Part shown: positions 27,098 to 50,470 of the stretch, piece by piece
Numbering within the stretch: position 1 is the first letter of the stretch
Layout: every line of letters starts with the position of its first letter
Assembly: GCA_030426085.1 (NCBI GenBank)
Contig: JAUHYW010000002.1
Coordinates: 204,451 to 268,450 of the forward strand
Source: a bacterium
GTDB lineage: Bacteria; Myxococcota_A; Bradymonadia; UBA7976; UBA1532
DNA: 64,000 nt
Reading direction: 5' to 3'
Position numbers and translations under genes: made by a program
Notes under the pieces: model-generated
What the model was told of the DNA's origin: nothing
Database searches by the model: none
The model's input: only the letters and a program-made list of their open reading frames with translations

Positions 27098-30484
<3,387 letters not shown>

Positions 30485-34381: not shown

Positions 34382-35214
34382 CCGCCCGAGCGCAGCGCCA
34401 CCGCGATCCTGTACGCCGCGTCCCGGCTGCCGCCGGTGCGCTTCGCCGCCTCCCGGGCCGCCTTGGACGGCGCGAAGCCATCGGCCAGCAGCCCGGCGAC
34501 CACCGCCTCCAGATCAGCCGCGTCGGGTGCCGCTTCGGGCGGCGCGCCGCCGACGAGGACCACGATCTCGCCCCGCACGACGCCCGGATCGGCCCGCAGT
34601 TCGCCCAGCGTGCCCCGGCGGAACTCCTCGAAGGCCTTCGTCAGCTCCCGGGCGATGACCGCCGGCCGCTCGGCCCCGAAGATCGACTCGGCCGCGTCCA
34701 GGAACCGCCCCAGCCCGTGGGGGCTCACGTAGAACACCAGCGTCTCGGCCGCCCCGGCCAGCCCGGACAGCGCGTCGCGCAACGCCTTGCCCTTCGCCGG
34801 CGGGAAGCCCACGAAGCGGAAGCGATCGGTCGGCAGCCCGGCCACCGACAGCGCCGTGGTCACCGCGCTGACCCCCGGGACCGGGACCACCGGCAGCCCG
34901 GCGTCGATCGCCGCCCGCACGACCTTGAACCCGGGGTCGCTGATCGTGGGCGTGCCGGCGTCGCTGACCAACGCGATGTCCTCGCCGGCCCGCAGCGCGT
35001 CGAGGATCATCGGCGTACGGCGGGCCTCGTTGTGGTCGTAGAGCGAGACCAGCGGCCGGCGCTCCAGGCCCAGCAGCTCCAACAGCTTGCCGGTGCGCCG
35101 GGTGTCCTCGCAGGCGATGCGGTCGACGGCGGACAGCACCCGCTGCGCGCGCAGGGTGATGTCCTCGAGGTTGCCGATGGGCACCGCCACCACGTACAGC
35201 GTGCCGTCGGTCAC
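34372..35214 (-). CDS. rsmI: 16S rRNA (cytidine1402-2'-O)-methyltransferase
   Basis: Tetrapyrrole-methylase fold motifs (YVVAVPIGNLEDITLRA, ACEDTRRTGKLL, ALVSDAGTPTISDPG). Length 280 aa. Confidence 0.85.
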   Translation of the reverse strand: MTDGTLYVVAVPIGNLEDITLRAQRVLSAVDRIACEDTRRTGKLLELLGLERRPLVSLYDHNEARRTPMILDALRAGEDIALVSDAGTPTISDPGFKVVRAAIDAGLPVVPVPGVSAVTTALSVAGLPTDRFRFVGFPPAKGKALRDALSGLAGAAETLVFYVSPHGLGRFLDAAESIFGAERPAVIARELTKAFEEFRRGTLGELRADPGVVRGEIVVLVGGAPPEAAPDAADLEAVVAGLLADGFAPSKAAREAAKRTGGSRDAAYRIAVALRSGGAG

Positions 35215-35293
35215 CGGACCTCCAGGTGAGTGGGCATGGGGATGCGAGGGGCGCCGGAGCGGCGGTCACCGCCCCGGCGAGCGCCGAGCGGGC

Positions 35294-38200
35294 TCAGCGG
35301 GACGAGCCGATCGCCAGCCCCAGGGCCTGACGCAGCTTGAAGTAGTTCTCCGACAGCGCGAAGAGCACCAGCTCCCGGATGCGATCCTGCACCGGGGCCC
35401 GGCTGAACGAGCCGGCCTCGTTCTTGATGACCTGCACCGCCGCCCCGAGGTCATTGGCCAGCACCAGCCCCAGCCGGTTGCCGGTGTGCTCCACCGTCTC
35501 GAGCCACTTGCTGACGTTGAGGTGCACCTTGGGGTTGGTGCTCGCCTTCTGGATCAGCTTGCTCATCTCGGCGCGGGCCGGCATCGGGATCGACTTGCCC
35601 CACTGCTCGAGCAGGTTCGGGTCGTACTGCACGTTGGCGTCGGGCTTCACCAGCCGCATCAGCGTGTAGACGATGGTCGAGAGGTACATCTTGCGCTGCT
35701 CGTAGCTCTCGCCCAGGTTCGCCAGGAAGTTGGACTGCCCCGACAGGAAGAGCTGCTTGGCGCCGGCGAACGCCAGCTCCTGCGGCTTGCGCCCCGAGAC
35801 GATGTCCGGCCCCACCAGCATCGCCGGCGGGTTGAGCTCCACCAGCCGCAGGCCGGGCCGGTTCTGCGGGTCGCGGTGGGCCTCGGGCGTCGGCAGCCGG
35901 GTGGTGTGCGAGACGTACTTCATCACGCTGTTGAAGGGCGTCTGCTCGTCCGGGTTGAGCACCGTCTTGCGCTTGTGCAGCCCGAGCTGCTTGTGGTTCT
36001 TGGCCACCACCGGCAGCGTGTACAGGTAGAGCTGCTGGAACAGGTGGTCGAGCAGCGGGCTCTTCTCCGGGTGGAAGATCAGCCCCCAGTGCCGCTGGTC
36101 GAGCTGCCGCTGGGCCTGCTTGAGCGTGCGCGAGCGGTACTTCTCGTACAGCAGCCGCTCGTCGGGGCTCGCCTGATTGAGGAAGACGAGCACCTGCGCC
36201 ACGCACCACGCCTCGTCGTACTTGCCCACGTCCATGAACAGCCGCCGCAGCTCCTGATAGCTCTCGACGGCCCGCGGGTTGAGGTTGATCAGCGTGTAGT
36301 GCTGGGCGATCGCCTTGTCGATCTGGTCCTCGCGCTCGTACAGCTCGGCCAGGATCGAGTGGGTCGGCGCGTCGTCGGGCTTCTTCGACAGGGCGATCTT
36401 GTACGCCTTGATCGCCTCGGCGAAGCGCTCGAGCCGGGTGCGGTTGATCTCGCCGAGGTTCTTGGCCAGCGAGAAGACCAGCCCGTCCTCCAGCCCCGAC
36501 TCGGTCGCCCGCTTGAGCATCTTGCGGTAGTAGCGGTCCTGGCGTTCGTAGTCCCGCTCTTCGGTCAGGATCTGGTCGATCGCCTGGAACGCCCGCAGGT
36601 TGGCCGGATCGGCCGCCAGGCCCTTGTCGAACGAGCGCACCGCGACGAAGTTGTCCCGCAGCTTCTCCCGCTGGAGCGTCGCCACCCCGCACCAGTACTT
36701 CGACTTGCGCTGGGGGTTGGTCTCCAGCTCGGCGAGCTGACTGAGCACGTCGACCATCGCCGGCCAGTTCTCCGCCGCCTCGTGCAGCCCGATGAGCTTG
36801 CCGAGCACCAGCCGGCTGCCCGGCTGCACCTCGAGGGCGTCGTTGTAGGCGTCCACCGCCAGCCGGGTGTTGTTCATCTGCTCGTGCAGGATGTCCCCGA
36901 TGCCGACCAGCGCCTGGAACTTCTCGCCCGGGTCGTCGATGAGCCCCGCCACCTGACGGCGGTAGTGGATCACGTCTTCCCAGTCGTTGCGCGCCTCGTG
37001 CAGATCGATGAGCGCCTTGAGGATCTCGGCGTTGCGGGGGTCGATCTCGAGCGCCTTGCGGAAGAAGTCCAGCGCCTTGCGCCGCTCCCCCAGCTTGAGC
37101 TTGATCTGCCCCTGCTGGTGGAAGATGCCCACCACCTCGCCCTCATCGAGGCTGTCGCGGTGATGCACCAGGATGGTCTGGTAGATCTTGAACGCCCGAT
37201 CCCAGTCCTCGTGGCGGAACAGCAGGTTGCCCATGCCCTGCAGCGTCGGCAGGTGGGTGCTGTCCAGCTCGTAGGCCTGCCGGTAGTGGCCCAGCGCCTT
37301 CTCGTCCTTGCGGAGCTGCTCGGCGCAGTAGCCGATGCGGTAGTTGAGCTGCTGCAGCTCGCGGATGTCGGCGTCCTGCTTGCCCTGCAACATCAGATCG
37401 AGCAGCGGCTCGGCCCGGGCCCAGTTCTGGTCGGCCCAGTAGACATCCACCAGCGGCTCGGCCGCGTCGGCGTTGTCCGGGGACATGTCCATCGCCTGCT
37501 CGTAGTAGTCGATGGCCATCGTCCGTTCGTCGATGTGCTTCTCGTAGATCCGGCCGATGCGGAAGAGGTACTTGCTCTTCTCGGCGAAGTTGCGGGTCGC
37601 CGCCTCCATCATCTGGAGGGTGCGCACCGCCTCGCTCCACTCCCCGCGGGACTCGTTGACCTCCTCGAGCGCCTCGAGCGCCGGCAGGTAGTTCGGATCG
37701 TGCTCCAGGGCGCTGCGGAACCAGCGCTCGGCCTGCTCCAGATCACCCACCTTCTCCTGGTAGATGCGGCCGACGCGATACTGCCGATCGAGCAGCTCGC
37801 CCCGGTCCTGGATCTGGTGCGCCTCGCGGCTGATCACGTCGATCGCGTGGGTCCAGTCCTCCACCTCGGCGTACAGCACGCTCAGCGTCTGCAACGTCGC
37901 GAGGTGATCGGGCAGGGGCTCGAGGATCGGAGTCAGCGCCTCGATCGCCGCCTGGGGATTCGACAGCGGACCCCGGTGGATCTCGGCCAGCGCGGTGCGG
38001 ATGAGCACCATGGTGTCCGGATCCTGGATGACCTCGAGGTGCTTGTCGTAGACCTCGGCCAGCTCGTCCCACTGCTCCGACTCGCGGTACAGCCGGTCGA
38101 GGGCCTGCACCGCGTGGGGGTCGCCCGGCGCGATCTCCATCATCGCCCGGTAGGCGTCGATGGTCGCGAAGCGATCCTGGACCTGCGCCTCCTGGATCTC

Positions 38201-41200
38201 GGCGATCTGGCGGTAGATGCGCAGCCGATCGGCGTCGCTCTCGGCCACCTGCAACATCAGCTCGTAGACATCGAGCAGCTCGGTCCACTGATCGAGCTGA
38301 CCGTAGAGCCGCTCCAGGGCCCGCATCGCCTCCACACAGCGATCGTCGGCCGACAGCGCCTGCCGATAGGCCTCGATGGCCCGCTCCGGCGAATCGAGCC
38401 GGGTCTCCCACAGCTCGCCGACCTGGAGGTACTTCTCGACGATCTGCCCGGTCTCTTCGAGCACGGCCGCCTGGTTGAGCAGCACGTCGATCAGCTCCTG
38501 CCACCGCATGCGCACGGTGTAGAGCCCCTCGAGGGCCACCAGGCTCGGCAGATCGGCCCCGTCGACCAGCAGCACCTGCCGGTAGGCCTCGATCGCCTCG
38601 TCCGGCCGGTCGAGGTGATGCTCGAGGATGCGGGCCAGCTTCTCGTAGCTCGCCTTGCTCTCCTCGGGGGTCTGGACCAGCTCCACCTTGCGCTGGAGGA
38701 TGCCGGCGACCATCTCCCACTGCTCGTAGCGCTCCAGCAACAGCTCGCGCGCGGTCAACGCCTCGACGTTGTCCGGCTCGATGGCCAGGGCGTACTCGTA
38801 GTGGGTGTTGGCGTACTCCGGCTGCTGCAGCTTCTCGTCCCACCAGCGGGCGACCCGGATGCGCAAGGGCACCGACTCCGGCGTCTCGCCCAGCGCCTCG
38901 ATGACCCGCTGATAGGTCTCGATGAGCGGGCTCCAGTAGCCGCCCAGCTCGGCCAGCCGGGCCAGCTCACCGCCGAAGCGCTCGTCGTCGAGGCACGCCT
39001 CGAACGCCTGCCCCAGCACCACGAACGCCTTCTCGATGTCGCCCAGCCGCTCCTCGAACGCCTTGGCGGTGCGCTCGTAGATGTCGAGCATCTCGGCCAG
39101 CTCGGTGGTCACCCCCAGGCGACCGAGCAGCAGGTTGACCAGCGACTCCCACTGCTCGCCGGCCTCGTAGAGCCGCTCGAGGTTGTCGTAGGCGTCGAAG
39201 TTGTCCGGCTGCACCTCCAGCACCTTGACGTAGCACTGCTGAGCGCCCGTCGCGTCGCCGAGCTGCTCCTCGTACATCTCAGCCGCCCGGAAGAGGATGC
39301 TGACCTTGTCGTAGACGTCCTCGGTGATCTCGACCTTGCGTTCGAGGATCTGCACGCAGGCGTCCCAGTTCTCCGCCTGCTGGTACAGATCCTCCAGGCA
39401 GCCGATGGCCTGCGGATCGTACGGCTCGAGCGCCAGGAGCTGGGTCCAGGCCCAGATCGCCTGCCCCTCGTCCTCCAGCTCGCCCATGTTCAGCTCGCCG
39501 AGCTGCCGGAACAGCTCGACCCGCCGCATGTCGTCGCCGGGCAGAAGCGCCAGCAGCCGGTGGTCGAACTCGGCCACCTTCGCCTGCTCGTCGATGCGGT
39601 CGTACAGCTCGCGCACCGCCCACAGGGCGTCCTCGTCGTCGGGGTCGAGCTCCAGCACCTTGTGCCAGTTCTCCAGCGCGTTGCGCTCCCGTTCGAGGTA
39701 GTCGCCCCAGACCCGACCCAGCTTGGCGTAGAGCTGCTTCTCGCGCGCGGTGTCGTTGTCGAGCAGGTTCACCTGCCGCTCGCAGACGTCGACCAGCTCC
39801 CGCCAGCTCTCCTGGACCTGATACAGCCCCTCGAGCGCCATCAGCGCCTCGGCGTCTTCGCCCCGCAGGTCGAGCACCTGATTCCACAGGTCGACCGCGT
39901 CGAAGGTCCGGTCGAGGAAGCCGCCGGCGAGGTTGGCCTGCGCCGCCAGGATGCGCGCCCGATCGGGATCGACCTCGGCGTTCTCCGCCTGCCGGGCATA
40001 CACCTCGTACAGCGGCGGCCAGTTCTCCTGGACGACGTAGATCTGCTCCAGCCGGCCCAGCGCGTCGGGGTGGTTCGGCTGGCGGGCGAGGATGCCGTTG
40101 TACTCCTCGACCGCCGCCTCCAACTCCGCCTGCCGCTCGTAGAGCTGGCCCAGGCGGTACATCAGCGCGATCAACTCCGGCTCGTCGTAGGTGACCTCCA
40201 CCTCGCGGCGCAGGATGTCGATCAGCTCCGGCCAGCGCCCCTGCTCCTCGAAGAGCACGTCGAGGCCCTTGAGCGCCCGGGCGTCGGTCGGATCGATCTG
40301 GGTCAGCACGTGCTGATACATCGACTCGGCCATCTCGTCGTTCGACAGCCGCTGCCGATAGATGTCGGCCATGTCGTGGCAGCTCGTGCGGATCAGCTCG
40401 AAGTCCTGGGTGTTCTCCAGCCCCTCGGTGTAGATCGCGACGAGGTTCTCCCAGCCGTCGATCTCCTCGGCGAGCCGCAGCAGCTCACGCCGGCTGTGCT
40501 CGTCCTCGGGCACCTCCTTGAAGGCTTCGCCGTACCACAAGAACGCCCGCTGCTTGTCGTCGAGCTGCTCCAGGCTCATCTCGGCCAGCCGGTGCATCGA
40601 GCGCATCCGGTCCTCGCCGGGCAGCTGATGGGCCAGCAGCGCCTGCAACAGATCGTGCAGCTTGGCCCACTGCTCGTTGCCCAGATAGATCGGCTCGAGC
40701 ACCTCGCCGATGTTGGGCTGCTCGTGGCCCGCCTCGAACAGCCGCTCGAGGGCCACGACCGCGTCGGGCTGCTCGGCCTCGATCTCGAGCACGTCCTTGT
40801 AGGCGGTGATCGACTGGCTGGTCTCCTCCAGGGCCGTCTCGAACAGCGCGCCCAGGCGCAGCAGCAGCGGCACCCGCTCGGCGTCCTCGGCCCGCTCCAC
40901 CCGGAGCTGGAGGATCTCGGCCAACTCGGGCCAGTTGCCCACCTTCTCGTGCAGCCGGTCCAGCGCGAGGATCGCCACCTCGTGGTCGGGGTCGATCTCC
41001 ATCACCCGCCGGAAGCGCTGGATGGCCGCCTCGGCGTCGCCCAGCTCCTCCTCGTAGGCCCGGGCCACCCGCAGGTACAGGTCGCGGGCCACGTACTCGC
41101 TGGGGATGGCGACGAGCTGCGCCTCGACCAGCTCCACGAACGGGCCCCACATCTCGGCGTTCTGCGCCACTCGCTCCAGGGCGGCCAGGGCCGCCTCGTG

Positions 41201-44200
41201 GGTCGGATCCTCCTTGAACGCCGCACCATAGGCCTCGAAGGCGCCGTCGGAGTCGGCCAGCATGTCCTCATAGGCCTGCCCGACCCGCATGCGCAGTCCG
41301 GTCCGGACCTCCAGATCCATCGTGACGTCGAGCAGGGCCCGCCAGACCTCGATCATGCGGGGCCAGTTGCCGGCCTTCGTCAGCACCGGCTCGAGGACCT
41401 CGGCCGCCATGCGGGCCTCGCGGTCCTGGCGGATGAGCCCCTCCAGGGCCTCGATCGACGGCGCGTGCTCCGGCTGGTCGGCCAGGATGCCCTTGTAGCC
41501 CTCGATGGCCGTCTCGACGTCCAGCAGGTGGATCTCGTGAAGCTGCGCGACCCGGAAGCGGATGTCGATCTTCTGGTCGTCGGGCACCAGCTCGACCTGC
41601 CGGGCGAGCACCTTCTGCAGGTCCTCCCAGTACTCGAGCTTGCCGTAGAGGCGCTCCAGGCTGGTCAAGGCCTCCAGATCGTTCGGATCCCACTCCAGGA
41701 CGGCGGTGTAGGTGTCCACCGCCCGCATGGGGTCCTCGAGCTGCATCTCGCACGACGCGCCGATGGCGTAGTAGATGCGCTTGCGGGCCTCGACGTCTTC
41801 GGTCAGCTCGGCCTTGCGGTGCAGGACCTCGAGCAGGTCCTCCCACTGCTCCATGCCGTTGAACAGCCGCTCCAGCTCTTCGAGCGCCTGCCAGTCGACC
41901 GGATCCAGCTCGCGCACGGTGCGCAGCGCCTCGACCGCCCGGAAGGGGTCGCCGAGCATCTCCTCGTTGAGCCCGGCGATCTGGAAGTACAGCGCCTTCT
42001 TGGGCCCGACCTCATCGGTCAGCTCGGCCTTGCGGTAGAGGACCGCCACCAGCTCGCTCCACAGCTCGCTGGTCCGGTAGATCTCCTCGAGGGCCTCGAT
42101 GACCCCCATGTCGCTGTCGTCGGCCTGATACGCCGCCTCGTAGTGCTCCCGGGCGCCGTCGTAGTCCTGGAGCTGACGGAGCTGCACTTCGGCGACCCGC
42201 TTGTGCACCGCGGTGGCGACGTCGGGGTCGAGGATCTCGGGCACCTGCTGCTCGTAGACCGCGGCCAGATCGGCCCACAGGTCGAGCGCCCCGGCGATGC
42301 GGTGCAGGTGGGTCAGCGTCTCCTCGTGGCTCGGGTCGACCTGGAAGGCGCGGGCGTAGCTCTGGAACGCGGAGACCGCGTCGGCCCCCCGGCTCTGGTG
42401 CAGCTCGGCGATCTGGTGCAGCAGCTCGACCTTGCGGGCCTCGTCCGGCGAGAACTCCCGCTGGATCTCGTAGACCTGGATCAGCTTCTGCCAGTCGTCC
42501 TGCCGCTCGTAGATCGGCTCGAGGATGTCGGCGATGGCCGGGCGGAAGGTCGGATCCTCGCTCAGCCGCTCCAGGGCCCCGATCGCCGCCGCGTTGTCGG
42601 GGTCGACCTCCAGGATCTCGCGGTAGGTCTCGATGGCCAGATCGAAGTTGTGCAGCTTCGTCTCGCGCAGCTCACCCAGGCGCACCCGCAGCTCGACCTG
42701 AGCCCCGGCGTCCTCGGCGAGCGCCAGCCGGCGGCCGAGGATGTCGGCCAGCTCGGCCCACAGCTCCTCCTGACCGTACAGCCGGTCGAGGGCCTCCAGC
42801 GCCCGCCCGTTCTCCGGCGCGATGTCGATGATCTCGTTGTAGACCGCGATGGCCTCCCGCGGCTCGCCGAGCATCGCCTCGAGCAGGTTGGCGATCTGGA
42901 ACTGCAGCGCCTCGCGGGCCTCGGGCTCTTCGGTCAACTCGAGCTTGCGCCGATAGATCGACAGCAGCTCGACCCACTGCTCGGTGCGGGTGTACAGCCG
43001 GTCGAGGGCCTCGATCGCCGGCCGATCCTCGGGCTCGAGGTCGAGCACCCGCCGGTGGGCGTCGATCGCCATCTCGGCGTTGTCCAGCCGCTCCTCGTAG
43101 ATCCCCGCCAGCCGGGCCAGCAGCGCCCGGGCCAGCGGCTCGTCGGGCACCTCGGGCAGCACCTGCTCGATCAGCTCGGCGAGCACGTCCCACCCGTCGG
43201 CCACCTCGGCCAGCTTCTCGAGCTGGGCGATGGCCACCTCGCTGGAGGGCGCCTCGCGGAACATGCGGGCGAACGCGTCGAACGCCCGCTCGATGTCGGC
43301 GGTGCGCTCGACGTGCAGGGTGCCGATGCGCTCCAGCAGCTCGACCCGCCGCTCGATGTCCAGCGTCTCTTCGAGCTGGATCTCGAGCACCACCACCAGG
43401 GGCTCCCAGGCGCTGGCGTCGCGGTAGATCGGCTCCAGGATGCCAGCCACTTCGCCCCGGTACTGCGGCTCTTCGAGCAGCCCCTCCAGGGCCTGCCGGG
43501 CGCCGTCGTGGCCCGGGTCGTCGGCCAGGATCTCCCGGAAGTTGCCGATCGCCTCCGGCGCCCGCTCCAGGTGATGCAGCTCGAGCACCGCCATGACCAT
43601 CTTCAGCGCGACCGACTGCTCGGCGTCCTCGGCGTCCAGGGCCATCTGCCGCAGACGGCCGAGCACCTCGTGCAGCTCGTGGAACTGCTCGGTGCTCTCG
43701 TAGAGGCGGCGCAGCGACTCGAGGGCGTCCCGATCCTCGGGGTCCTCGTCGACGACGCTGCGGTAGCGCTCGATGGCCGAGATCGGCTCCTCGAGCTGGT
43801 TCTCGAAGATGAGCCCCTGCTTGCGGAACAGCTCCTTGCGGGCCTCGCTCTCTTCGGCGAGGGCCAGCTTGCGGTCCAGCACCCCGAGCAGCGCGTGCCA
43901 GTCCATGGCCCGGGTGTACAGCGCCTCGACGGCGTCGAGCGCCTCCCGGTTGTCGGGGTCGATCTCCAGCGCCTGATGGTAGCGCTCGAGCGCCTGCTCG
44001 TGGGCCCCCATCTGCTTGTCGAGGATGCGCCCCAGGCTGAGCAGGATCTCGAGCTGGGCCGCCATGGGGTCGACGTCGGCCGGCGCCATGTCGGGCACCC
44101 GGTCGAGCGCCGCGGTCAGATCCTCGTGCACCGCCGGCCAGCTCCCGGTCGCCTCACCGAGCCGCTCCAGCTCGCGCCGGGCCTCGGCGTCGGCCGGGTG

Positions 44201-47020
44201 CTCGGCGATGACCTTGCGCATCCACTCGAAGGCGCCTTCGGTGTTGCGCATGTGCTGCTCGGCCAGCTCGGCGCTGCGCATCATCAGCACCCGCCGCTGC
44301 TCGGGCTCGCTCTCGTTCTCGAGCAGCACCTCGAGCACGCCGACCAGCTTCCGGTGATCGTCGTTGGCGGTGTAGATCGGCTCCAGCCGCCGGGCGGCCT
44401 CGACGTTGCCCGGCTCGGTCTGCAGCACCCGTTCGAGGGCCCGCACCGCGCGGTCCTGCTGCTCGGTCTGCTCCTCGTAGATCCGGGCCGCCCGGAAGAG
44501 CAGGTCGATCTTGACCGCGTCCTCCTTCTGCACCCCGACCTGACCCTCGAGCAACCGCACCAGCTCGGCCCAGCCGTTGCGCTGGTCGGCGTAGAACGTC
44601 TCCAGCGCGTCCCAGTCACCCAGCTCGACGAGCGCCTTCTTCAGCGAATCGCCCGCCCGCCGGTTGCGGGGGTCGATCTCGAGCAGCCGCTGCCAGATGG
44701 GGACCGCCCGCGCTTTGTCGTCCATCCGATCCTGGAGCACGCTGCCCGACTTCTGCAGCAGATCAGCCTGCTCCTTGGGGTCGTCGACGAGGTCGACGAG
44801 GATGTCGATCGTCTCGACCAGCTCGTCGAAGTTCTTGCCCTGCTCGTAGGCCCCGACCAGGGCCCGCAGCGCGTCGACGTCCTCCGGCGCGATCTCGCGG
44901 ACCTTCTCCCACAGCGCCTGCACGATGTTGGGTCGGCGGATCTTCTTGTTGGCGTACTCGGCGAGGGCCTTGTAGCCCGCCAGCCGCTCGTCGATGCCGT
45001 CGGCCAGATCGGCGATGCGCTGGCGGGTCGCGATCAGGTTGTCCCAGTCGCGGCGCTTCTCGTACATCTTGTCGAGCGACTCGAGCGCCTGCCGGTTCTC
45101 CGGGTCGAGTTCGAGCACCGCTTCGAAGGCTTTGATCGCCTCGGCCTGATTGCGCAGCCGGTCGAGGTACAGGCTCGCGATCTGCAGCCCGTAGTCGATC
45201 TTCTCCTGCCCGTCGGCCCGCTCGAACTGGGTCTCGAGGACCCCGATCAGATCGGGCCAGCGCCGCATCGACTCGTACTTCTCGATGAGCAGCGCCGGGA
45301 CCTCGGCGTCGCTGGGGTCCAGCGCGAGGATCTCGGCGTAGATCTGGACCACCTGCGCGTCCTGCCGGACGTGCTCCGACATCAGCTCGGCCAGCCGGCG
45401 CAGCCCGTCGAGCTTCTTCCGGGTCTGGCTCTCGGGGATGTCGTCGACGACGACCCGCAGGACGTCGATCAGCTCCTTGTGCTTGCCGAGCGCCTCGTAG
45501 AGCCGCAACAGCGCGCGCCGGGCCGGCTTGTCCTCCTTGTCGGCCTGATGCACCTGCCGCCAGAAGTCGGCCGCCTTCTCCTGATCACCCAGCCGGCGCT
45601 CGGCGAGGCGGGCCATCTGCCGCAGCGCGGCGACCCGGGCCTCAGCCGGCTTGCCACCGGCCTCCTGAGCGAAGACCTGCTGCACGTTGCGCCACTTGCC
45701 GGCCTCGACCAGCCGCACGGTCTGCCACCGCACCACCGCCGGATCGTCCGACTTCTTGGCCATCTCGCGCAGCTTGTAGTCGACCGTGCGCTCCTCACCG
45801 AGGTGCGCCGCGCCGAAGACCAGCCGGTGGGCCGCGATCGCGTCGGGGCGCTCCGACGACTCGGCGAGGGCGTCGAGCCCCTCGGCCACCGCCGCCTTCA
45901 ACTCATCGGAGCCCTCCAGGGAACGACCGGCGGCCCAGTAGACCTCCACCTCGCCCGCGTCGGCCTCGACGGCGGCGAGATACAGCCGCTGGAAGTCGTC
46001 CATCTGATCGGCGCCGAGCGCCGCCGCCGCCCGACCGTAGAGGTCGTGCCGTCGCGCCCCGCTGGCCTGCCCGGCCATCGCCTCGAGCTCGGCGGTCGAG
46101 AGCCGGTCGAGCGCCTCGTCTTCGTCCTCGTCCTCGTCGGCAGCGGGCTCCGGCGCAGCGGCCACGGGCGCAGCGGGCTGGGGCGCAGGCGGCGGCTCGG
46201 GCGCCGCCTCCTGGGTCGCCTCGACCGGCGTCTCCACGGTGGACTCGGGGCTGTCCTCCTCCGCCCCGCCGCCGAGGGCCGCGAGCCGGGCCCGGGCGTC
46301 CTCGTTGTTCGGGTCGAGGCGCACGATCTCCTGAAGCACCGGCAGCGCGGCCTCCTGCTGACCGAGATCGACCAGGTAGAGGTTGGCCATCTCCTCCAGC
46401 ACTGCGAGCCGACGCCCGTCGTCGGGGGCCCGCTCCAGCTCGTACTGCAGGAGCTGAACCACCATGTCGAGGTTGTCGACGTCGCGATGGATGCGCCGGG
46501 CCGCCGCGACCGCGTCGAGCTGCTCGGGATCGGTCTGGTAGGCGAACTCGTAGTACTCCAAGGCCCGCGCCCGATCCCCGACCCGCTCGTCGAGGATCTG
46601 CCCCATCTGGAATACGAGCGCCGCTCGGTCCTGCGGCGTCTCGAGACGTTCCTGCTCGGCGGTCGCGACCTCGAGGTAGCTCTCCCACTCCCCGAGCACG
46701 AGCAGCAGCCGACGCATCTCGGCCAGCGTCGTCAGGACGCCCGCCGGTTCGAGCCCCTCCCCCTCCAGCGAAGCGCTGTAGAGCTGAACCGCCTGCGCCA
46801 GATCCTCGAGGTGGTCACGGGCCACCTCGGCTCCCCGCCGGAGGAACTCGGCCCGGGCCTGCATATCCGCCGTCTCGTGCTCGGCGAGGTGCACGTAGAG
46901 CTGGGCGAGTTCCTCCCAACTGCCCTGCTCACGCAGGAGGGCTTCGAGTTCACCGCTGGCCTCGCGGTTGCTCGGATCCTCAATCACCGCATCGAAGAGC
47001 TCGCGAATCCGCTCGGTCAT
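35294..47020 (-). CDS. giant (3908 aa) cytoplasmic TPR-repeat protein, AgmK/GltI-like
   Basis: Single uninterrupted frame of 11,727 nt. More than 80 consecutive ~34-aa TPR-like units (…A(I/L)E(A/L)LERLY…W(E/D)EL…) with no signal peptide. The antisense 4044-aa ORF is L/R/V-rich and featureless. Size and composition match the M. xanthus gliding protein AgmK. Confidence 0.8.
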   Translation of the reverse strand: MTERIRELFDAVIEDPSNREASGELEALLREQGSWEELAQLYVHLAEHETADMQARAEFLRRGAEVARDHLEDLAQAVQLYSASLEGEGLEPAGVLTTLAEMRRLLLVLGEWESYLEVATAEQERLETPQDRAALVFQMGQILDERVGDRARALEYYEFAYQTDPEQLDAVAAARRIHRDVDNLDMVVQLLQYELERAPDDGRRLAVLEEMANLYLVDLGQQEAALPVLQEIVRLDPNNEDARARLAALGGGAEEDSPESTVETPVEATQEAAPEPPPAPQPAAPVAAAPEPAADEDEDEDEALDRLSTAELEAMAGQASGARRHDLYGRAAAALGADQMDDFQRLYLAAVEADAGEVEVYWAAGRSLEGSDELKAAVAEGLDALAESSERPDAIAAHRLVFGAAHLGEERTVDYKLREMAKKSDDPAVVRWQTVRLVEAGKWRNVQQVFAQEAGGKPAEARVAALRQMARLAERRLGDQEKAADFWRQVHQADKEDKPARRALLRLYEALGKHKELIDVLRVVVDDIPESQTRKKLDGLRRLAELMSEHVRQDAQVVQIYAEILALDPSDAEVPALLIEKYESMRRWPDLIGVLETQFERADGQEKIDYGLQIASLYLDRLRNQAEAIKAFEAVLELDPENRQALESLDKMYEKRRDWDNLIATRQRIADLADGIDERLAGYKALAEYANKKIRRPNIVQALWEKVREIAPEDVDALRALVGAYEQGKNFDELVETIDILVDLVDDPKEQADLLQKSGSVLQDRMDDKARAVPIWQRLLEIDPRNRRAGDSLKKALVELGDWDALETFYADQRNGWAELVRLLEGQVGVQKEDAVKIDLLFRAARIYEEQTEQQDRAVRALERVLQTEPGNVEAARRLEPIYTANDDHRKLVGVLEVLLENESEPEQRRVLMMRSAELAEQHMRNTEGAFEWMRKVIAEHPADAEARRELERLGEATGSWPAVHEDLTAALDRVPDMAPADVDPMAAQLEILLSLGRILDKQMGAHEQALERYHQALEIDPDNREALDAVEALYTRAMDWHALLGVLDRKLALAEESEARKELFRKQGLIFENQLEEPISAIERYRSVVDEDPEDRDALESLRRLYESTEQFHELHEVLGRLRQMALDAEDAEQSVALKMVMAVLELHHLERAPEAIGNFREILADDPGHDGARQALEGLLEEPQYRGEVAGILEPIYRDASAWEPLVVVLEIQLEETLDIERRVELLERIGTLHVERTADIERAFDAFARMFREAPSSEVAIAQLEKLAEVADGWDVLAELIEQVLPEVPDEPLARALLARLAGIYEERLDNAEMAIDAHRRVLDLEPEDRPAIEALDRLYTRTEQWVELLSIYRRKLELTEEPEAREALQFQIANLLEAMLGEPREAIAVYNEIIDIAPENGRALEALDRLYGQEELWAELADILGRRLALAEDAGAQVELRVRLGELRETKLHNFDLAIETYREILEVDPDNAAAIGALERLSEDPTFRPAIADILEPIYERQDDWQKLIQVYEIQREFSPDEARKVELLHQIAELHQSRGADAVSAFQSYARAFQVDPSHEETLTHLHRIAGALDLWADLAAVYEQQVPEILDPDVATAVHKRVAEVQLRQLQDYDGAREHYEAAYQADDSDMGVIEALEEIYRTSELWSELVAVLYRKAELTDEVGPKKALYFQIAGLNEEMLGDPFRAVEALRTVRELDPVDWQALEELERLFNGMEQWEDLLEVLHRKAELTEDVEARKRIYYAIGASCEMQLEDPMRAVDTYTAVLEWDPNDLEALTSLERLYGKLEYWEDLQKVLARQVELVPDDQKIDIRFRVAQLHEIHLLDVETAIEGYKGILADQPEHAPSIEALEGLIRQDREARMAAEVLEPVLTKAGNWPRMIEVWRALLDVTMDLEVRTGLRMRVGQAYEDMLADSDGAFEAYGAAFKEDPTHEAALAALERVAQNAEMWGPFVELVEAQLVAIPSEYVARDLYLRVARAYEEELGDAEAAIQRFRRVMEIDPDHEVAILALDRLHEKVGNWPELAEILQLRVERAEDAERVPLLLRLGALFETALEETSQSITAYKDVLEIEAEQPDAVVALERLFEAGHEQPNIGEVLEPIYLGNEQWAKLHDLLQALLAHQLPGEDRMRSMHRLAEMSLEQLDDKQRAFLWYGEAFKEVPEDEHSRRELLRLAEEIDGWENLVAIYTEGLENTQDFELIRTSCHDMADIYRQRLSNDEMAESMYQHVLTQIDPTDARALKGLDVLFEEQGRWPELIDILRREVEVTYDEPELIALMYRLGQLYERQAELEAAVEEYNGILARQPNHPDALGRLEQIYVVQENWPPLYEVYARQAENAEVDPDRARILAAQANLAGGFLDRTFDAVDLWNQVLDLRGEDAEALMALEGLYQVQESWRELVDVCERQVNLLDNDTAREKQLYAKLGRVWGDYLERERNALENWHKVLELDPDDEDALWAVRELYDRIDEQAKVAEFDHRLLALLPGDDMRRVELFRQLGELNMGELEDEGQAIWAWTQLLALEPYDPQAIGCLEDLYQQAENWDACVQILERKVEITEDVYDKVSILFRAAEMYEEQLGDATGAQQCYVKVLEVQPDNFDAYDNLERLYEAGEQWESLVNLLLGRLGVTTELAEMLDIYERTAKAFEERLGDIEKAFVVLGQAFEACLDDERFGGELARLAELGGYWSPLIETYQRVIEALGETPESVPLRIRVARWWDEKLQQPEYANTHYEYALAIEPDNVEALTARELLLERYEQWEMVAGILQRKVELVQTPEESKASYEKLARILEHHLDRPDEAIEAYRQVLLVDGADLPSLVALEGLYTVRMRWQELIDVLLNQAAVLEETGQIVEKYLQVGELWETRLDSPERAIEAYRQALSADDRCVEAMRALERLYGQLDQWTELLDVYELMLQVAESDADRLRIYRQIAEIQEAQVQDRFATIDAYRAMMEIAPGDPHAVQALDRLYRESEQWDELAEVYDKHLEVIQDPDTMVLIRTALAEIHRGPLSNPQAAIEALTPILEPLPDHLATLQTLSVLYAEVEDWTHAIDVISREAHQIQDRGELLDRQYRVGRIYQEKVGDLEQAERWFRSALEHDPNYLPALEALEEVNESRGEWSEAVRTLQMMEAATRNFAEKSKYLFRIGRIYEKHIDERTMAIDYYEQAMDMSPDNADAAEPLVDVYWADQNWARAEPLLDLMLQGKQDADIRELQQLNYRIGYCAEQLRKDEKALGHYRQAYELDSTHLPTLQGMGNLLFRHEDWDRAFKIYQTILVHHRDSLDEGEVVGIFHQQGQIKLKLGERRKALDFFRKALEIDPRNAEILKALIDLHEARNDWEDVIHYRRQVAGLIDDPGEKFQALVGIGDILHEQMNNTRLAVDAYNDALEVQPGSRLVLGKLIGLHEAAENWPAMVDVLSQLAELETNPQRKSKYWCGVATLQREKLRDNFVAVRSFDKGLAADPANLRAFQAIDQILTEERDYERQDRYYRKMLKRATESGLEDGLVFSLAKNLGEINRTRLERFAEAIKAYKIALSKKPDDAPTHSILAELYEREDQIDKAIAQHYTLINLNPRAVESYQELRRLFMDVGKYDEAWCVAQVLVFLNQASPDERLLYEKYRSRTLKQAQRQLDQRHWGLIFHPEKSPLLDHLFQQLYLYTLPVVAKNHKQLGLHKRKTVLNPDEQTPFNSVMKYVSHTTRLPTPEAHRDPQNRPGLRLVELNPPAMLVGPDIVSGRKPQELAFAGAKQLFLSGQSNFLANLGESYEQRKMYLSTIVYTLMRLVKPDANVQYDPNLLEQWGKSIPMPARAEMSKLIQKASTNPKVHLNVSKWLETVEHTGNRLGLVLANDLGAAVQVIKNEAGSFSRAPVQDRIRELVLFALSENYFKLRQALGLAIGSSR

Positions 47021-47111
47021 GGAGATTGCCTCAACAGGGAATGCTCGAAAGTACTAGATGGACGACGAGCCGATGCGCCGGGCACGGGGCCGGGCGACGA
47101 CGGCCAGCGCG

Positions 47112-47996
47112 TCACTTGGTTCGCTTCTTCGCCGCCTCTTCCAGACGAGCGAGCGTATCCTGCGCCGCCTCGATCCGCAGCGGATCCTCATTGGCCGTGC
47201 GCCGGGTCAGGTACAGCTTGAGGTGCTGAATCGCCGCCGGGCCGTCGCCGTTCGCGAAGTACGCCATCCCCAGGTTGAAGAAGGTGCCGGCGTGCTTGCC
47301 ATCGAGCGAGCGGGCCTTCTCGAACTGGGCGATCGCGTCGTCGAGGCGACTCTGGGCCTGATACACCAGCCCCAGGTCGTGATAGTTCAACGCCCACTGG
47401 GGGTTGTTCTCGATCGCGTTCTTGAACACCTGCGCCGCGTGGGAATACTGCTCGAATCGGCGGTAGAGGTTGCCCAGCGCGTTGTACGCCTCGGGCAGCC
47501 GGGGGTCGGTGCGCACGGCCTGCATGTAGACCTCCTGCGCCCGGTCGAACTGTTCGAGGTGCTCGAGCGCCATGCCCAGCCGCAGGTGGGCCTCCGCCCG
47601 GGAGGGATCGGCCTCGATCGACGTCTCGAGGTTCGTCACCGCGTCCTTCCAGCGGCGCTGCTTGGCCAGCGTCGCGCCGAGGTGATAGCTGTACTCTGCG
47701 CTGTCCGGCCTCAGCTCGAGCGCCCGGCGGTAGTTCTCCTCGGCGGCCTTGAACTTGGCCAGCTTCTGCTCGTAGAGCAGCCCCTGATAGAAGAACGCCC
47801 GGTCGTTGGTCGGATCGACATCGGCGGCCTGCCCCAGCTTGCTGAGGGCATCGGTCAGCCGGTCCCGCTGGAAGAGCTTGAGCCCCTCGTTCATCAGCCG
47901 GATCGACTCGTTCCGCTCCTGATTGCACCCGGTGCCCAGCGTGAGGCAGCCCGCCAACCAGACGAACACACCCCATCGCGCCACGGTTCGGATCAT
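47112..47996 (-). CDS. TPR-repeat lipoprotein
   Basis: Lipobox MIRTVARWGVFVWLAGCLTLGTGC followed by ~7 canonical TPR units (AFFYQGLLYEQ, AEAHLRLGMALE, PEAYNALGNLY, ALNYHDLGLVY, AGTFFNLGMAYF). Confidence 0.7.
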   Translation of the reverse strand: MIRTVARWGVFVWLAGCLTLGTGCNQERNESIRLMNEGLKLFQRDRLTDALSKLGQAADVDPTNDRAFFYQGLLYEQKLAKFKAAEENYRRALELRPDSAEYSYHLGATLAKQRRWKDAVTNLETSIEADPSRAEAHLRLGMALEHLEQFDRAQEVYMQAVRTDPRLPEAYNALGNLYRRFEQYSHAAQVFKNAIENNPQWALNYHDLGLVYQAQSRLDDAIAQFEKARSLDGKHAGTFFNLGMAYFANGDGPAAIQHLKLYLTRRTANEDPLRIEAAQDTLARLEEAAKKRTK

Positions 47997-48202
47997 GTAT
48001 CTGCTCGCTTCCAGCCGACCTGCCAGGTCCATTCGAGGAACAGGGCGCCGGTTTTGGAGGTATCACCGGGTCGGTATGCAGTCAAGAACCGGCCCCGCGC
48101 CGGACGTCTCTGCGGCGATGGATCGGCCCCACCCGCGCAACGGTCTTCGAAACGCCGACACCCCGCCGGGTGGGCGGGGTGTCGGAATGAACGGGGCGCG
48201 AC

Positions 48203-49972
48203 TCAGCTCGGCTTGAAGATGAAGGGGTACGTCACGATGACGATGCCGCCCCCCTTGGGCGCCGGGAAGACCCACCGCTTGATCTTGCTGGCCAGGCAGT
48301 TCTCCACGCTAGCGTTCTTCATGGTCGACTCGACGACCTGAGAGGCGATGACGCTGCCGTTGCCGGCGATGGTGAACTTCACCTTGATCTTGCCGTTGAG
48401 GTCGCGCTTGCGGTTCAGCTCGCGCTCGTAGCAGTACCGATACTCGGCCCGGTGCCGGCGAATGACCCGGCGGATGGTCTCCCGGTCGAGCGAGCCCTGC
48501 ACGATGGGCTTGCCGGGGATGACCTTGGGCGACTTGGCCGACTTGCGACCGAGCCGGCTCTGACCCCGACCGTAGCCGCTGTTGCCGCTGCCGCCTCGGC
48601 CCCGGGTGCCGACGTTGCCGACGCCGATGGACGCCTCACCGAAGCCACCGCCGCCGCGCCCGACCCCGGCGACGCCGAGGCCACCGAAGCCGGCGGCCGC
48701 GCCGGTCTTGTCGCCGAACATGTTGCCCAGCGCGCTGACGGCATCCGAGCCGATGGCCTGATTGCCCTCGCCCCAGACCGAACTCAGCTCGCCTTCGAGG
48801 CTGTTGACCGCCGCCTGAGCGGTGTCGATCGCCTCCTGGCGGGCCCGCTCACGGGCCAGTTCGATCTCCTCCTGGTTGCCCTCGACCGCGAAGCGCTTGT
48901 CCTTCGCCTCTTCGGTCCGGTCGCCCATCTCCCCCTGATCGTCCTTGGCCTTCTCCGCCTTCTCGCCCTCGTCCTTGAGGTCGCCGAAGAGGTCCTCGAT
49001 CTTCTGCTTCTCCTCCTCGGGCGTGAGCATGAACTCGACGAACCGGTCGGACATGTCGAAGCCGTCCATCGACAGGCTGTCGGCGTCCTCGGGGATGCTC
49101 AGCACGATCAGGAAGAAGAGGGCGTGCAGGACGGCCGCGGCGAGCAGATACCGCAGGAGCTGCGGATCCATCGCCTTGAGGAACGACCCCCGCCCGACCA
49201 TCGGGGCCGCCGGCACCGAGTTGATGAGGAAGGTCAGGTCACCGAACTTGAGCCGACACCGGGCCCGCGGCGGCAGGCGCAGCGAGTGACTCTGGGGCAC
49301 GGCCGAGCGGCCGAGCTTGCCCGCCGCCTTCAGCTCGTCGATGGCGTAGACCTTGCCGTCGAGCATCACCTCGCCCTCGATGCCCTCGGGCACGTTGACG
49401 ACCATGGTGTTGCCGTCGGTCTCGGCGAGCGGGAACGGGTTCTGGCGGATGAACTGGGGGTTGACGAAGTGCGACGCGTCCTCGCCGTCCCCGATGGTGT
49501 AGCTCGCCGCCTCGGTGAAGTGCTGCACGTCGACGACGGTGACGCCCCACAGGACGAGCACCTCGAGCGCCCGGCGTCCACCCGCTTCGGCCTCGTTCTC
49601 GTCGAAGAGCGGCGCGTTGGAGACCACCGGCCGCCGCCCGGCGCCGCCTCGCTGGGCGCTCTGCCCGGCGATGGCCACCACGACCGTGGTGCCGCCGAAG
49701 CGGATCCGATCGCCGGTGCGCAGCCGGTGCTTGGTCACCCGCTCGCCGTTGACGTAGGTACCCGTGGCGCTGCCGAGGTCCAGGATGACCACGTCATCGG
49801 GGCTGCTGGCCTCGATGACCGCGTGCATCCGTGACACGCTGTCGTCGTCGATCCGCACATGGGACGACGACAACTTGCCGATCTTGATCGTCTGCTCTGC
49901 CAGAATCTCGGTTCGTACGAGTTGATTGCCCTCGTATATGTCGAACTTGATCGGCGTGTTCGCGGTGTCCAT
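48203..49972 (-). CDS. FHA domain - TM - TonB C-terminal-like domain protein (GltG/PglI-like)
   Basis: N-terminal FHA domain (IKIGKLSSSHVRIDDDSVSRMHAVIE...LDLGSATGTYVNGERV). Central TM helix (LLAAAVLHALFFLIVLSI). E/K-rich and G-rich periplasmic linker. C-terminal TonB_C-like domain (...GKIKVKFTIAGNGSV...GGGIVIVTYPFIFKPS). Confidence 0.7.
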   Translation of the reverse strand: MDTANTPIKFDIYEGNQLVRTEILAEQTIKIGKLSSSHVRIDDDSVSRMHAVIEASSPDDVVILDLGSATGTYVNGERVTKHRLRTGDRIRFGGTTVVVAIAGQSAQRGGAGRRPVVSNAPLFDENEAEAGGRRALEVLVLWGVTVVDVQHFTEAASYTIGDGEDASHFVNPQFIRQNPFPLAETDGNTMVVNVPEGIEGEVMLDGKVYAIDELKAAGKLGRSAVPQSHSLRLPPRARCRLKFGDLTFLINSVPAAPMVGRGSFLKAMDPQLLRYLLAAAVLHALFFLIVLSIPEDADSLSMDGFDMSDRFVEFMLTPEEEKQKIEDLFGDLKDEGEKAEKAKDDQGEMGDRTEEAKDKRFAVEGNQEEIELARERARQEAIDTAQAAVNSLEGELSSVWGEGNQAIGSDAVSALGNMFGDKTGAAAGFGGLGVAGVGRGGGGFGEASIGVGNVGTRGRGGSGNSGYGRGQSRLGRKSAKSPKVIPGKPIVQGSLDRETIRRVIRRHRAEYRYCYERELNRKRDLNGKIKVKFTIAGNGSVIASQVVESTMKNASVENCLASKIKRWVFPAPKGGGIVIVTYPFIFKPS

Positions 49973-50007: not shown

Positions 50008-50305
50008 TCAGATGTCTTCGGCCGACTTGAGCATCTCGGGGACGAAATTCTCCCGGATGCGAATCAGGCTGCTGTGCCGTGCGCGGCGCCGGGAGTCGAG
50101 ATACTCCCCTTCGGGGCGCACGAACGACCCCTCCACCACGTCGTCCTCGAAGTCGTATTCGGTCTGCCTGCGGTAGACCACGTTCGGATCGTTCGGATCC
50201 TGCAGGAAGTCCTCGCTATTGGGGTCGACTTCTTCCTGCGCGCTCGCTACGACAGGCGCGGCGACGAGGGCGACGAGGACAAAAAGGCTTCGAATGCTGA
50301 GCATG
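50008..50305 (-). CDS. small secreted protein (GltF-like by position)
   Basis: Signal peptide MLSIRSLFVLVALVAAPVVASAQEE followed by ~75 acidic residues. Start at the internal Met of ORF 50008..50487. Confidence 0.45.
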
Positions 50306-50470
50306 CCTCTCTCCTTCGAACTCGATGAGGCGCATCGACAGCAGTCAGTATAGCGGTGTCGCGTCGGCCGACCAACCCCGCCGCGGCAGTCGACACACAT
50401 GATGGGGGGAAGTTCTCTCGAGAGGAATTTTTTCCGGGTCGGCGTCGGGCGACGCCCCGGCGATCTCCGC

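What the first reader, a model, noticed from the sequence alone, without database searches (positions are those of the whole stretch)
35294..47020. 3908-aa uninterrupted TPR-repeat protein (AgmK/GltI-like)
One 11.7-kb minus-strand frame encodes more than 80 contiguous TPR-like units. The 34-residue signature is very regular (…EALERLY…W.EL…), and there is no signal peptide.

Proteins of this size and composition are rare. The known example is AgmK (GltI), a cytoplasmic scaffold of the Myxococcus xanthus Agl-Glt gliding focal-adhesion machinery, which is about the same length.

The antisense 4044-aa ORF in the track is a compositional shadow.
Basis: partly seen in the sequence, partly recalled or inferred. 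Interest (0 to 1): 0.6.

Follow-up and report, generated by a model that had tools for sequence, protein, structure and literature searches.

The report
Giant GltI/AgmK-type gliding scaffold gene
This is a real 3,908-residue cytoplasmic repeat protein at the end of a gliding-motility (Glt) gene cluster in an uncultured myxobacterium-like organism; it is most likely that organism's version of the known giant scaffold GltI/AgmK, so it is a new member of a known kind.

Summary
The ORF at 35294..47020 (-) is real. Its GC3 is 0.96, and it is intact and collinear in most of 80 independent assemblies. The antisense 4044-aa ORF is a codon-position shadow.

- The repeat period is 72 residues (four helices, two TPR-like hairpins), not 34.
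- There are about 48 units. About 44 of them run without a break from residue 470 to 3620.
- The last ~290 residues are a non-TPR globular domain with no Pfam or PDB match.

The gene is the last in a same-strand cluster: gltC, gltD-like, gltE, gltF, gltG (FHA plus TonB_C), a 306-aa TPR lipoprotein gene, then the giant. The FHA/TonB_C gene lies just upstream of the giant in 48 of 56 related loci across Myxococcota. Luciano et al. 2011 list Sorangium sce2920 and sce2921 as MXAN_4863 (GltI) homologues, directly after sce2914-2918 (gltC-G). That is the same gene order.

I could not retrieve the M. xanthus AgmK sequence, so the direct comparison was not done. No gltJ lies next to the giant here.

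Verdict: a GltI-family scaffold of an Agl-Glt-type machine, and a new member of a known kind.

The parts
35294..47020 (-). gltI/agmK-like giant gene, 3908 aa plus stop
   Evidence: ORF and translation. GC3 0.96. Single collinear BLASTP HSPs of 3400-3640 aa with about 30 giant proteins at 28-54% identity. 270 species genomes encode a relative.
46259..46981 (-). N-terminal block of about 3.5 repeat units (aa 14-254); poorly conserved across the family
   Evidence: Unit HMM hits. Low conservation and occupancy.
46091..46258 (-). acidic, Pro/Ala-rich low-complexity linker (aa ~255-310)
   Evidence: Sequence read directly. Short TRF repeats at 46114-46204.
45614..46090 (-). poorly repetitive, family-variable region (aa 311-469)
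   Evidence: No unit HMM hits. Occupancy 0.45-0.77.
36161..45613 (-). main array of about 44 contiguous 72-residue units (aa 470-3620); from aa ~577 on it aligns with almost no indels across the family
   Evidence: period and units. (occupancy about 1.0 in 33 giants). (AF2 model with four helices per unit; TPR superhelix matches).
35297..36160 (-). C-terminal non-TPR globular domain (aa 3621-3908), always at the C-terminus in relatives
   Evidence: 824 representatives at E<=1e-10, all matching at their C-terminus. AF2 pLDDT 95.3, pTM 0.92, helices plus a 3-stranded sheet. No Pfam, PDB-sequence or significant Foldseek-PDB match.
47112..48032 (-). 306-aa TPR lipoprotein gene between gltG and the giant
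   Evidence: TPR Pfam hits. Lipobox-type N-terminus MIRTVARWGVFVWLAGCLTLGTGC. Found in the same position in most related loci.
48203..49972 (-). gltG-like gene: cytoplasmic FHA domain, one TM helix (~aa 275-293), TonB_C / AgmX-PglI C-terminal domain
   Evidence: Pfam FHA 72 bits, TonB_C. NCBIfam gliding_GltG 431 bits (cut-off 650), myxo_SS_tail 118 bits. TM peak.
50008..50487 (-). gltF/cglF-like small gene (true start probably the Met at aa 61, about 50307)
   Evidence: NCBIfam gliding_CglF 87.3 bits, cut-off 90. Hydrophobic N-terminal segment after Met61.
50471..51871 (-). gltE-like TPR gene
   Evidence: NCBIfam gliding_GltE 144.6 bits, cut-off 225. TPR Pfam hits.
51715..54957 (-). gltD/agmU-like 1080-aa TPR gene with a signal peptide (assigned by position and size)
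   Evidence: TPR_6 and YbgF-like hits. Signal-like N-terminus. Same position as MXAN_4870, sce2915 and Hoch_2491.
54945..56609 (-). gltC-like gene
   Evidence: NCBIfam gliding_GltC E 1.8e-121, 407 bits, cut-off 450. Signal-like segment after an internal Met.
35087..47221 (+). antisense 4044-aa ORF: not a gene, a shadow of the minus-strand frame
   Evidence: GC1 0.95 and GC3 0.75, the inverse of the coding pattern. Product is L/V/G/R-rich.

Best explanation
The gene encodes this organism's GltI (AgmK)-family protein. It is a giant, very acidic cytoplasmic protein made of an extended solenoid of about 48 double-TPR units and capped by a conserved C-terminal globular domain.

It is probably co-expressed with gltC, gltD, gltE, gltF, gltG and a TPR lipoprotein gene. 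By analogy with M. xanthus, it would act as the cytoplasmic scaffold of an Agl-Glt-type trans-envelope machine (a bacterial focal adhesion). The long array would offer several docking sites for the cytoplasmic FHA domain of the inner-membrane protein GltG, and so gather several motor/transducer units into one adhesion complex.

Shown here: the gene, its repeat anatomy, its predicted folds, its family and its conserved linkage to gltG. Inferred: orthology with MXAN_4863, FHA docking, and a role in gliding.
For: - Real, intact gene. Intact giant ORFs of 3300-4050 aa occur in most of 80 independent loci.
- Same-strand cluster whose members best match NCBIfam gliding_GltC, GltE, CglF and GltG.
- An FHA/TonB_C gene lies within 6 kb upstream, on the same strand, in 48 of 56 loci with enough flank. 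These span Kofleriaceae, Sandaracinus, Polyangiaceae, Bradymonadia and others.
- Luciano et al. 2011, Table S3: MXAN_4863 homologues sce2920 (1774 aa) plus sce2921 (2081 aa) follow sce2914-2918 (gltC, D, E, F, G). Locus L046 (Polyangiaceae) has the same order and similar sizes: up to 1253 (gltD), up to 518 (gltE), 92 or 148 (gltF), 694 (gltG) and up to 327 (TPR) aa from the first start codon, then 3786 aa (giant).
[quoted passage not shown] Here: 3908 aa, no TM or signal segment, and a confident, mostly helical C-terminal domain.
- From aa ~577 on, the array aligns with almost no indels across 33 giants. This fits a structural scaffold whose length is constrained.
Against: - No direct alignment with M. 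xanthus, Stigmatella or Anaeromyxobacter GltI was possible. None appeared among the 150 listed representatives or the 80 kept loci.
- All Glt neighbours score below NCBIfam's curated equivalog cut-offs.
- gltJ follows gltI in Myxococcus, Stigmatella and Anaeromyxobacter. It is absent downstream here (RsmI instead) and in the 10 related loci tested.
- gltH, gltA, gltB, gltK and aglRQS are not in the window.
- Function was not tested.
Confidence: 0.8

Rival explanations
1. The protein belongs to the GltI family, but the cluster serves a Glt-like envelope machine with a job other than gliding. The precedent is Agl-Nfs, which moves spore-coat polymer. Other possible roles are predation or envelope transport.
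For: - M. xanthus has several paralogous Glt-like clusters with other roles.
- The neighbours fall below the equivalog cut-offs.
- gltJ, gltH, gltA, gltB and gltK are not seen near the cluster.
- An extra TPR lipoprotein gene is present.
Against: - In the published analysis, the non-gliding paralogous clusters lack GltI, GltJ and GltK. A giant gene next to gltG therefore points to the gliding type.
- Cultured Bradymonadales glide, and one cultured species, Lujinxingia litoralis, carries a family member.
Confidence: 0.12
2. The protein belongs to a separate giant TPR family that only resembles GltI in size and composition and has come to sit beside Glt-like clusters independently.
For: - No direct comparison with MXAN_4863 was done.
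- Luciano's table lists no MXAN_4863 homologue for Haliangium, although Haliangium-like MAGs carry this family.
- No Myxococcus or Anaeromyxobacter protein was seen among the hits I could inspect.
Against: - The Sorangium proteins that the literature calls MXAN_4863 homologues occupy exactly this position in the same gene order.
- The architecture matches published GltI, including the large C-terminal helical domain.
- Only the best 150 of 1694 representatives and 80 of 270 loci were visible, so not seeing Myxococcus among them says little.
Confidence: 0.07
3. The long frame is an assembly artefact (collapsed or chimeric repeats) or a pseudogene.
For: Repetitive genes are prone to misassembly.
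Against: - The DNA copies are only 60-76% identical.
- The protein aligns end to end with relatives, with almost no indels after aa 577.
- Intact ORFs of similar length occur in dozens of independent assemblies, including contigs of several megabases.
- GC3 is 0.96 along the frame.
Confidence: 0.01

Closest known systems
GltI (AgmK, MXAN_4863) of Myxococcus xanthus, cytoplasmic component of the Agl-Glt bacterial focal adhesion
   Same: - Giant size (3908 against 3822 aa).
- TPR-type solenoid over most of the length.
- No signal peptide or TM segment.
- A large, mostly helical C-terminal domain.
- Gene in the same operon-like cluster, downstream of gltD-E-F-G.
   Different: - Sequence relationship not measured here.
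- No gltJ immediately downstream.
- A TPR lipoprotein gene sits between gltG and the giant, where M. xanthus has gltH and the doubtful ORFs MXAN_4864/65.
- gltC is contiguous with gltD here, as in Anaeromyxobacter and Sorangium. In M. xanthus it lies in the separate G2 cluster.
Sorangium cellulosum So ce56 sce2920 + sce2921 (published MXAN_4863 homologues)
   Same: Same gene order: gltC, gltD, gltE, gltF, gltG, one unlisted gene (sce2919), then the giant TPR gene. The combined length of 3855 aa is comparable.
   Different: Annotated as two ORFs in So ce56. The link rests on the published table and on the Polyangiaceae MAG locus L046.
Closest sequence relatives: MAG 'bacterium 2_bin.46' (locus L004), Bradymonadia MAG protein MFN3201894.1 (P0018), Lujinxingia litoralis WP_111729458.1 (P0036)
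   Same: - Collinear full-length alignment: 87% best-segment identity with L004, 54% with P0018, 35% (BLASTP) with P0036.
- L004 has the same flanking genes, gltC through RsmI. The flanks of P0036 were not examined.
   Different: All are annotated only as 'tetratricopeptide repeat protein' or 'hypothetical protein'. None has been studied.
Long TPR superhelices such as the O-GlcNAc transferase TPR domain and designed consensus TPR arrays
   Same: Helical-hairpin solenoid fold (Foldseek probability 1.0, E 5e-10).
   Different: - The unit is a 72-residue double hairpin.
- TM-scores are only about 0.3, so the superhelical geometry differs.
- The array is roughly ten times longer than these domains.

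Membership tests
GltI/AgmK family (Agl-Glt gliding machinery) | Significant collinear sequence similarity to M. xanthus MXAN_4863 | not testable with these tools
   The AgmK sequence could not be retrieved. It was not among the 150 listed representatives, the named cluster members or the 80 kept loci.
GltI/AgmK family (Agl-Glt gliding machinery) | Giant (~3800-4100 aa) TPR-rich protein | tested here: met
   3908 aa. Pfam TPR families. About 48 double-TPR units. Published lengths are 3822-4104 aa.
GltI/AgmK family (Agl-Glt gliding machinery) | Cytoplasmic: no signal peptide, no TM helix | tested here: met
   No KD19 peak above 1.6 in 3908 aa; hydrophilic N-terminus. This is a hydropathy check only; no dedicated signal-peptide predictor was available.
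GltI/AgmK family (Agl-Glt gliding machinery) | Substantial helical C-terminal domain after the TPR array | tested here: met
   AF2 model of aa 3590-3908: pLDDT 95.3, 16 helices plus a small sheet. Whether it is homologous to the M. xanthus domain was not tested.
GltI/AgmK family (Agl-Glt gliding machinery) | Encoded in the cluster with gltD, gltE, gltF and gltG | tested here: met
   Same-strand neighbours match gliding_GltC, GltE, CglF and GltG. The linkage is conserved in 48 of 56 loci.
GltI/AgmK family (Agl-Glt gliding machinery) | gltJ (agmX) immediately downstream, as in Myxococcus, Stigmatella and Anaeromyxobacter | tested here: not met
   Downstream here is RsmI. None of 10 downstream genes in related loci is GltJ-like. 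This is a feature of the locus in Myxococcia, not of the protein. The published table lists no MXAN_4862 (gltJ) homologue for Sorangium either.
GltI/AgmK family (Agl-Glt gliding machinery) | [quoted passage not shown] | not testable with these tools
   Needs multimer modelling and experiments. Published only for M. xanthus.
TPR repeat superfamily | Helix-turn-helix repeats that match TPR profiles and form a solenoid | tested here: met
   TPR_8, TPR_7, TPR_2 and TPR_1 are far above their gathering scores. The AF2 model matches TPR superhelices in Foldseek. The repeat register is 72 residues, not 34.
M48-type zincin metallopeptidases (considered for the C-terminal domain) | HExxH zinc-binding motif and significant fold or sequence similarity | tested here: not met
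   Only weak Foldseek hits: ZMPSTE24 at E 0.55, probability 0.47; BepA at E 1.6. No profile hit in PDB or Pfam. The consensus 'ELAFxxxKxL' after the sheet has no HExxH.

The most novel reading that the evidence does not exclude
Outside the Myxococcus group, the Agl-Glt machine may have a variant build. In it, a GltI protein whose unit number hardly varies acts as a molecular ruler; gltJ is not encoded beside it; a dedicated TPR lipoprotein is encoded between gltG and gltI; and the undescribed C-terminal domain, possibly a dead zincin-like fold, is the real docking module. If so, the M. xanthus model of the cytoplasmic platform would be a derived special case.
Probability: 0.15. Interest if true: 0.55.

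Novelty: new member of a known kind. Interest (0 to 1): 0.3.

Why it matters
The cytoplasmic platform is the least understood part of the bacterial focal adhesion, and GltI has been studied in only one species.

This locus and its 270 or more relatives show three things. The giant scaffold is widespread in Myxococcota, including Bradymonadia. From aa ~577 on, its repeat array aligns with almost no indels, so unit number is tightly conserved. It ends in a conserved domain that has a confident predicted fold but no annotation.

These give concrete handles for work on how many motor units one scaffold can organise: conserved units, an alignment, and domain boundaries. For genome annotation, the result gives a function-linked name to proteins now labelled only 'TPR repeat protein'.

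Tried and rejected
- The search for homologous proteins with the full 3908-aa protein timed out.
- The same tool with the C-terminal 429 aa, and with profile A1, returned only 14-15 short metagenome fragments and none of the giant proteins. Its word index seems not to reach very long proteins. The third and last search, with GltG, listed the best 120 of 182 hits and no Myxococcus entry among them. The plan to reach the M. xanthus locus through the look-up of encoding contigs therefore failed.
The reduced alignment A3 worked, but the 80 kept loci are the ones closest to the query, and M. xanthus was not among them.
- The listing of cluster members on 30 giant representatives gave only MAG names plus Lujinxingia litoralis.
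- A literature search for MXAN_4863 found no paper with sequence or peptides. The supplement of the 2025 structural-model paper is not held.
- The idea that the C-terminal domain is an M48-like protease was rejected as unsupported.
- The idea that gltJ follows the giant in related loci was rejected. The downstream genes are RNase Y, CarB, a histidine kinase and others.
- Rfam found no RNA family in the window.
Full report
**Observation**

The window has about 70% G+C. An ATG-to-stop ORF of 3908 codons lies at 35294..47020 on the minus strand. Its codon-position G+C is 0.75/0.36/0.96, the pattern of real genes in this window. The antisense 4044-aa ORF (35087..47221) has 0.95/0.37/0.75, the mirror image, and an L/V/G/R-rich product. 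It is a shadow frame.

**Anatomy**

- Pfam finds only TPR families, at very high scores.
- The repeat register is not 34. Similarity autocorrelation over residues 450-3600 peaks at lags 72 and 144, and lag 34 is unremarkable. The '...A[LI]xALExLY...W.EL...' signature recurs every 71-73 residues.
- A profile built from the units finds 52 matches, which correspond to about 48 units. There are about 3.5 units at residues 14-254 and an almost gap-free run of about 44 units from 470 to 3620.
- Between the two blocks lie an acidic, Pro/Ala-rich linker (about 255-310) and a poorly repetitive stretch (311-469).
- An AlphaFold2 model of residues 1304-1675, built with 12 family sequences, has pLDDT 94.7 and shows four helices per 72 residues. 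Its Foldseek matches are TPR superhelices (O-GlcNAc transferase TPR domain, E 5e-10, probability 1.0). TM-scores are only about 0.3, so the superhelical geometry differs.
- 'More than 80 TPR-like hairpins' is therefore right (about 95), but the evolutionary unit is a double hairpin.
- The protein has no hydrophobic segment and a net charge of about -332.

**C-terminal domain**

- Residues 3621-3908 are not TPR. An AF2 model of residues 3590-3908 has pLDDT 95.3 and pTM 0.92. It shows helices plus a three-stranded sheet.
- The domain has no Pfam match in any of 29 family members, no PDB profile match and no significant Foldseek-PDB match. The best hints are the M48 peptidases ZMPSTE24 (E 0.55) and BepA (E 1.6). 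These are not significant, and the family consensus has no HExxH motif.
- An exhaustive HMMER scan of 1.84 billion representatives finds 1694 proteins at E<=1e-3 and 824 at E<=1e-10. The domain is at the C-terminus in every listed case. About 36 of the 150 listed proteins are giants of 3300-4230 aa.

**Family**

- The giant aligns with about 30 of those proteins in single collinear HSPs of 3400-3640 residues at 28-54% identity.
- In a 33-sequence full-length alignment, column occupancy is about 1.0 from residue ~577 to the end, while the first ~500 residues vary. The array is therefore conserved with almost no gain or loss of units in most members. A few members are longer (P0017, P0175, L062).
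- Named relatives are a Bradymonadia MAG (P0018, 54% identity), Myxococcota MAGs, and Lujinxingia litoralis WP_111729458.1.
- A scan of one genome per species found 270 genomes that encode a relative. The 80 kept loci are all MAGs. Their labels include Kofleriaceae, Haliangium, Sandaracinus and Sandaracinaceae, Polyangiaceae, Polyangia, Nannocystaceae, Bradymonadia and 'Myxococcaceae'.
- The closest locus is L004 (MAG 'bacterium 2_bin.46'), with 81-95% identical Glt neighbours.
- In most of the 80 loci the gene is one intact ORF of 3300-4050 aa. DNA copies within our gene are only 60-76% identical and TRF finds no array. Together these dispose of the repeat-collapse and frameshift worry.

**Context**

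The giant is the last gene of a same-strand cluster:

| Coordinates (-) | Gene | Evidence |
|---|---|---|
| 54945-56609 | gltC-like | NCBIfam gliding_GltC, 407 bits, E 1.8e-121 |
| 51715-54957 | gltD-like, 1080-aa TPR protein | signal-like N-terminus; in the gltD position |
| 50471-51871 | gltE-like | gliding_GltE, 145 bits |
| 50008-50487 | gltF-like | gliding_CglF, 87 bits |
| 48203-49972 | gltG-like | FHA, one TM helix, TonB_C; gliding_GltG 431 bits; AgmX/PglI C-terminal domain 118 bits |
| 47112-48032 | 306-aa TPR protein | lipoprotein-type N-terminus |

All Glt scores are below NCBIfam's curated equivalog cut-offs, so the proteins are divergent homologues. Downstream is the 16S rRNA methyltransferase RsmI. 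Upstream are YraN and RimM. No gltJ, gltH, gltA, gltB, gltK or aglRQS was found in the window.

Local tblastn shows the order gltC-D-E-(F)-G-TPR-giant in most loci. The FHA/TonB_C gene lies within 6 kb upstream, on the same strand, in 48 of 56 loci with enough flank. None of the ten downstream genes tested in related loci is GltJ-like.

**Link to AgmK/GltI**

- M. xanthus GltI is described as a 3822-residue, TPR-rich, cytosolic protein without a signal peptide. [quoted passage not shown]
- Its gene lies in the G1 cluster gltD-E-F-G-H-(MXAN_4864/65)-I-J.
- Luciano et al. 2011, Table S3, list these MXAN_4863 homologues: Anaeromyxobacter proteins of 4074-4104 aa, Stigmatella STAU_5650 (4089 aa), and Sorangium sce2920 (1774 aa) plus sce2921 (2081 aa). 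The Sorangium pair directly follows sce2914-2918, which are gltC, D, E, F and G, with sce2919 unlisted.
- That is exactly the order found here. The Polyangiaceae locus L046 also matches it in gene sizes, with ORFs of up to 1253, up to 518, 92 or 148, 694 and up to 327 aa, followed by a 3786-aa giant.
- In Haliangium the same table lists Hoch_5628, Hoch_5627 and Hoch_5625 as gltF, gltG and a 296-aa TPR protein, but no giant. Haliangium-like MAGs do carry the family.

**Mechanism**

The steps below are inferred, not shown. The cluster would be co-transcribed. GltC, D, E and F and the TPR lipoprotein would be exported. GltG would span the inner membrane with its FHA domain in the cytoplasm. The giant would stay in the cytoplasm as an extended, acidic solenoid of nearly fixed length. 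As proposed for M. xanthus, its units would offer several docking sites for GltG-FHA and so bundle several motor/transducer units into one adhesion site. The conserved C-terminal domain would provide a further, still unknown, contact.

Cultured Bradymonadales glide. One cultured species of that order, Lujinxingia litoralis, has a family member.

**Rivals**

- A Glt-like machine with another role, as with Agl-Nfs. This is possible. However, the published non-gliding paralogous clusters lack GltI, GltJ and GltK.
- An unrelated giant TPR family. This is unlikely given the Sorangium link and the matching architecture.
- An assembly artefact. This is excluded by the evidence above.

**Novelty and scores**

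This is a new, divergent member of a known kind. Several points are worth noting but do not change the category:
- the 72-residue unit;
- the near-invariant unit number across the phylum;
- the unannotated C-terminal domain;
- the conserved TPR lipoprotein gene between gltG and gltI;
- the absence of an adjacent gltJ.

Interest is 0.3. Confidence in the GltI-family scaffold reading is 0.8.

Noticed in passing
window 47112-48032 (-); the same position in most loci L002-L080: A ~300-aa TPR protein with a lipoprotein-type signal (…WLAGC…GTGC) is encoded between gltG and the giant in most Myxococcota loci. It probably corresponds to Hoch_5625 and to the unlisted sce2919. M. xanthus has gltH and the disputed ORFs MXAN_4864/65 (the agmV insertion site) in that position. 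It may be an unrecognised component of the machine.
   Followed up: partly
window 36161-45613 (-), aa ~577-3620; alignment A2: Across 33 giant relatives at 27-53% identity, the repeat array aligns with occupancy of about 1.0, so repeat units are almost never gained or lost. This is unusual for a tandem-repeat protein and suggests a constraint on length or on individual units.
   Followed up: partly
window 35297-36160 (-), aa 3621-3908: The C-terminal domain has a very confident AF2 model but no Pfam, PDB-sequence or significant Foldseek-PDB match. It shows a faint resemblance to M48 zincins (ZMPSTE24, BepA) but has no HExxH motif. Many representatives of 300-2000 aa also end in it; these may be fragments or shorter paralogues.
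   Followed up: partly
window 49658-49972 (-), GltG aa 1-105: The FHA domain keeps the S-R-x-H motif but has Lys (IGK) where canonical FHA domains have the pThr-binding Arg (GR). Whether its binding depends on phosphorylation is open.
   Followed up: no
window 23603-27034 (+) and 27098-30484 (+): Two tandem paralogous genes (1143 and 1128 aa) encode a Ser/Thr protein kinase domain, an AAA_16 ATPase domain and TPR_12 repeats. They lie about 5-8 kb downstream of the giant on the other strand. No link to the FHA protein was tested.
   Followed up: no
window 34372-35214 (-); loci L001-L007, L024, L038: RsmI (16S rRNA C1402 2'-O-methyltransferase) directly follows the giant in this clade. In ten related Polyangia-type loci the gene there is RNase Y. 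gltJ is adjacent in none of the loci tested.
   Followed up: yes
P0017 (4227 aa), P0175 (4623 aa), L062:2901-16910 (4669 aa): One sister lineage has clearly longer versions. P0017 shows a large insertion within the array relative to the window protein (seen when extracting columns for aa 1304-1675). The near-fixed unit number therefore has exceptions.
   Followed up: no
window 11971-15909 (-), 20822-23572 (+), 5199-8900 (-): Several large high-GC3 ORFs (1312, 916 and 1233 aa) have no Pfam match. The first two also have no NCBIfam match; the 1233-aa ORF was not scanned against NCBIfam. The ORF at 16106-19237 (-) has a weak VolA/Pla-1 phospholipase match.
   Followed up: no
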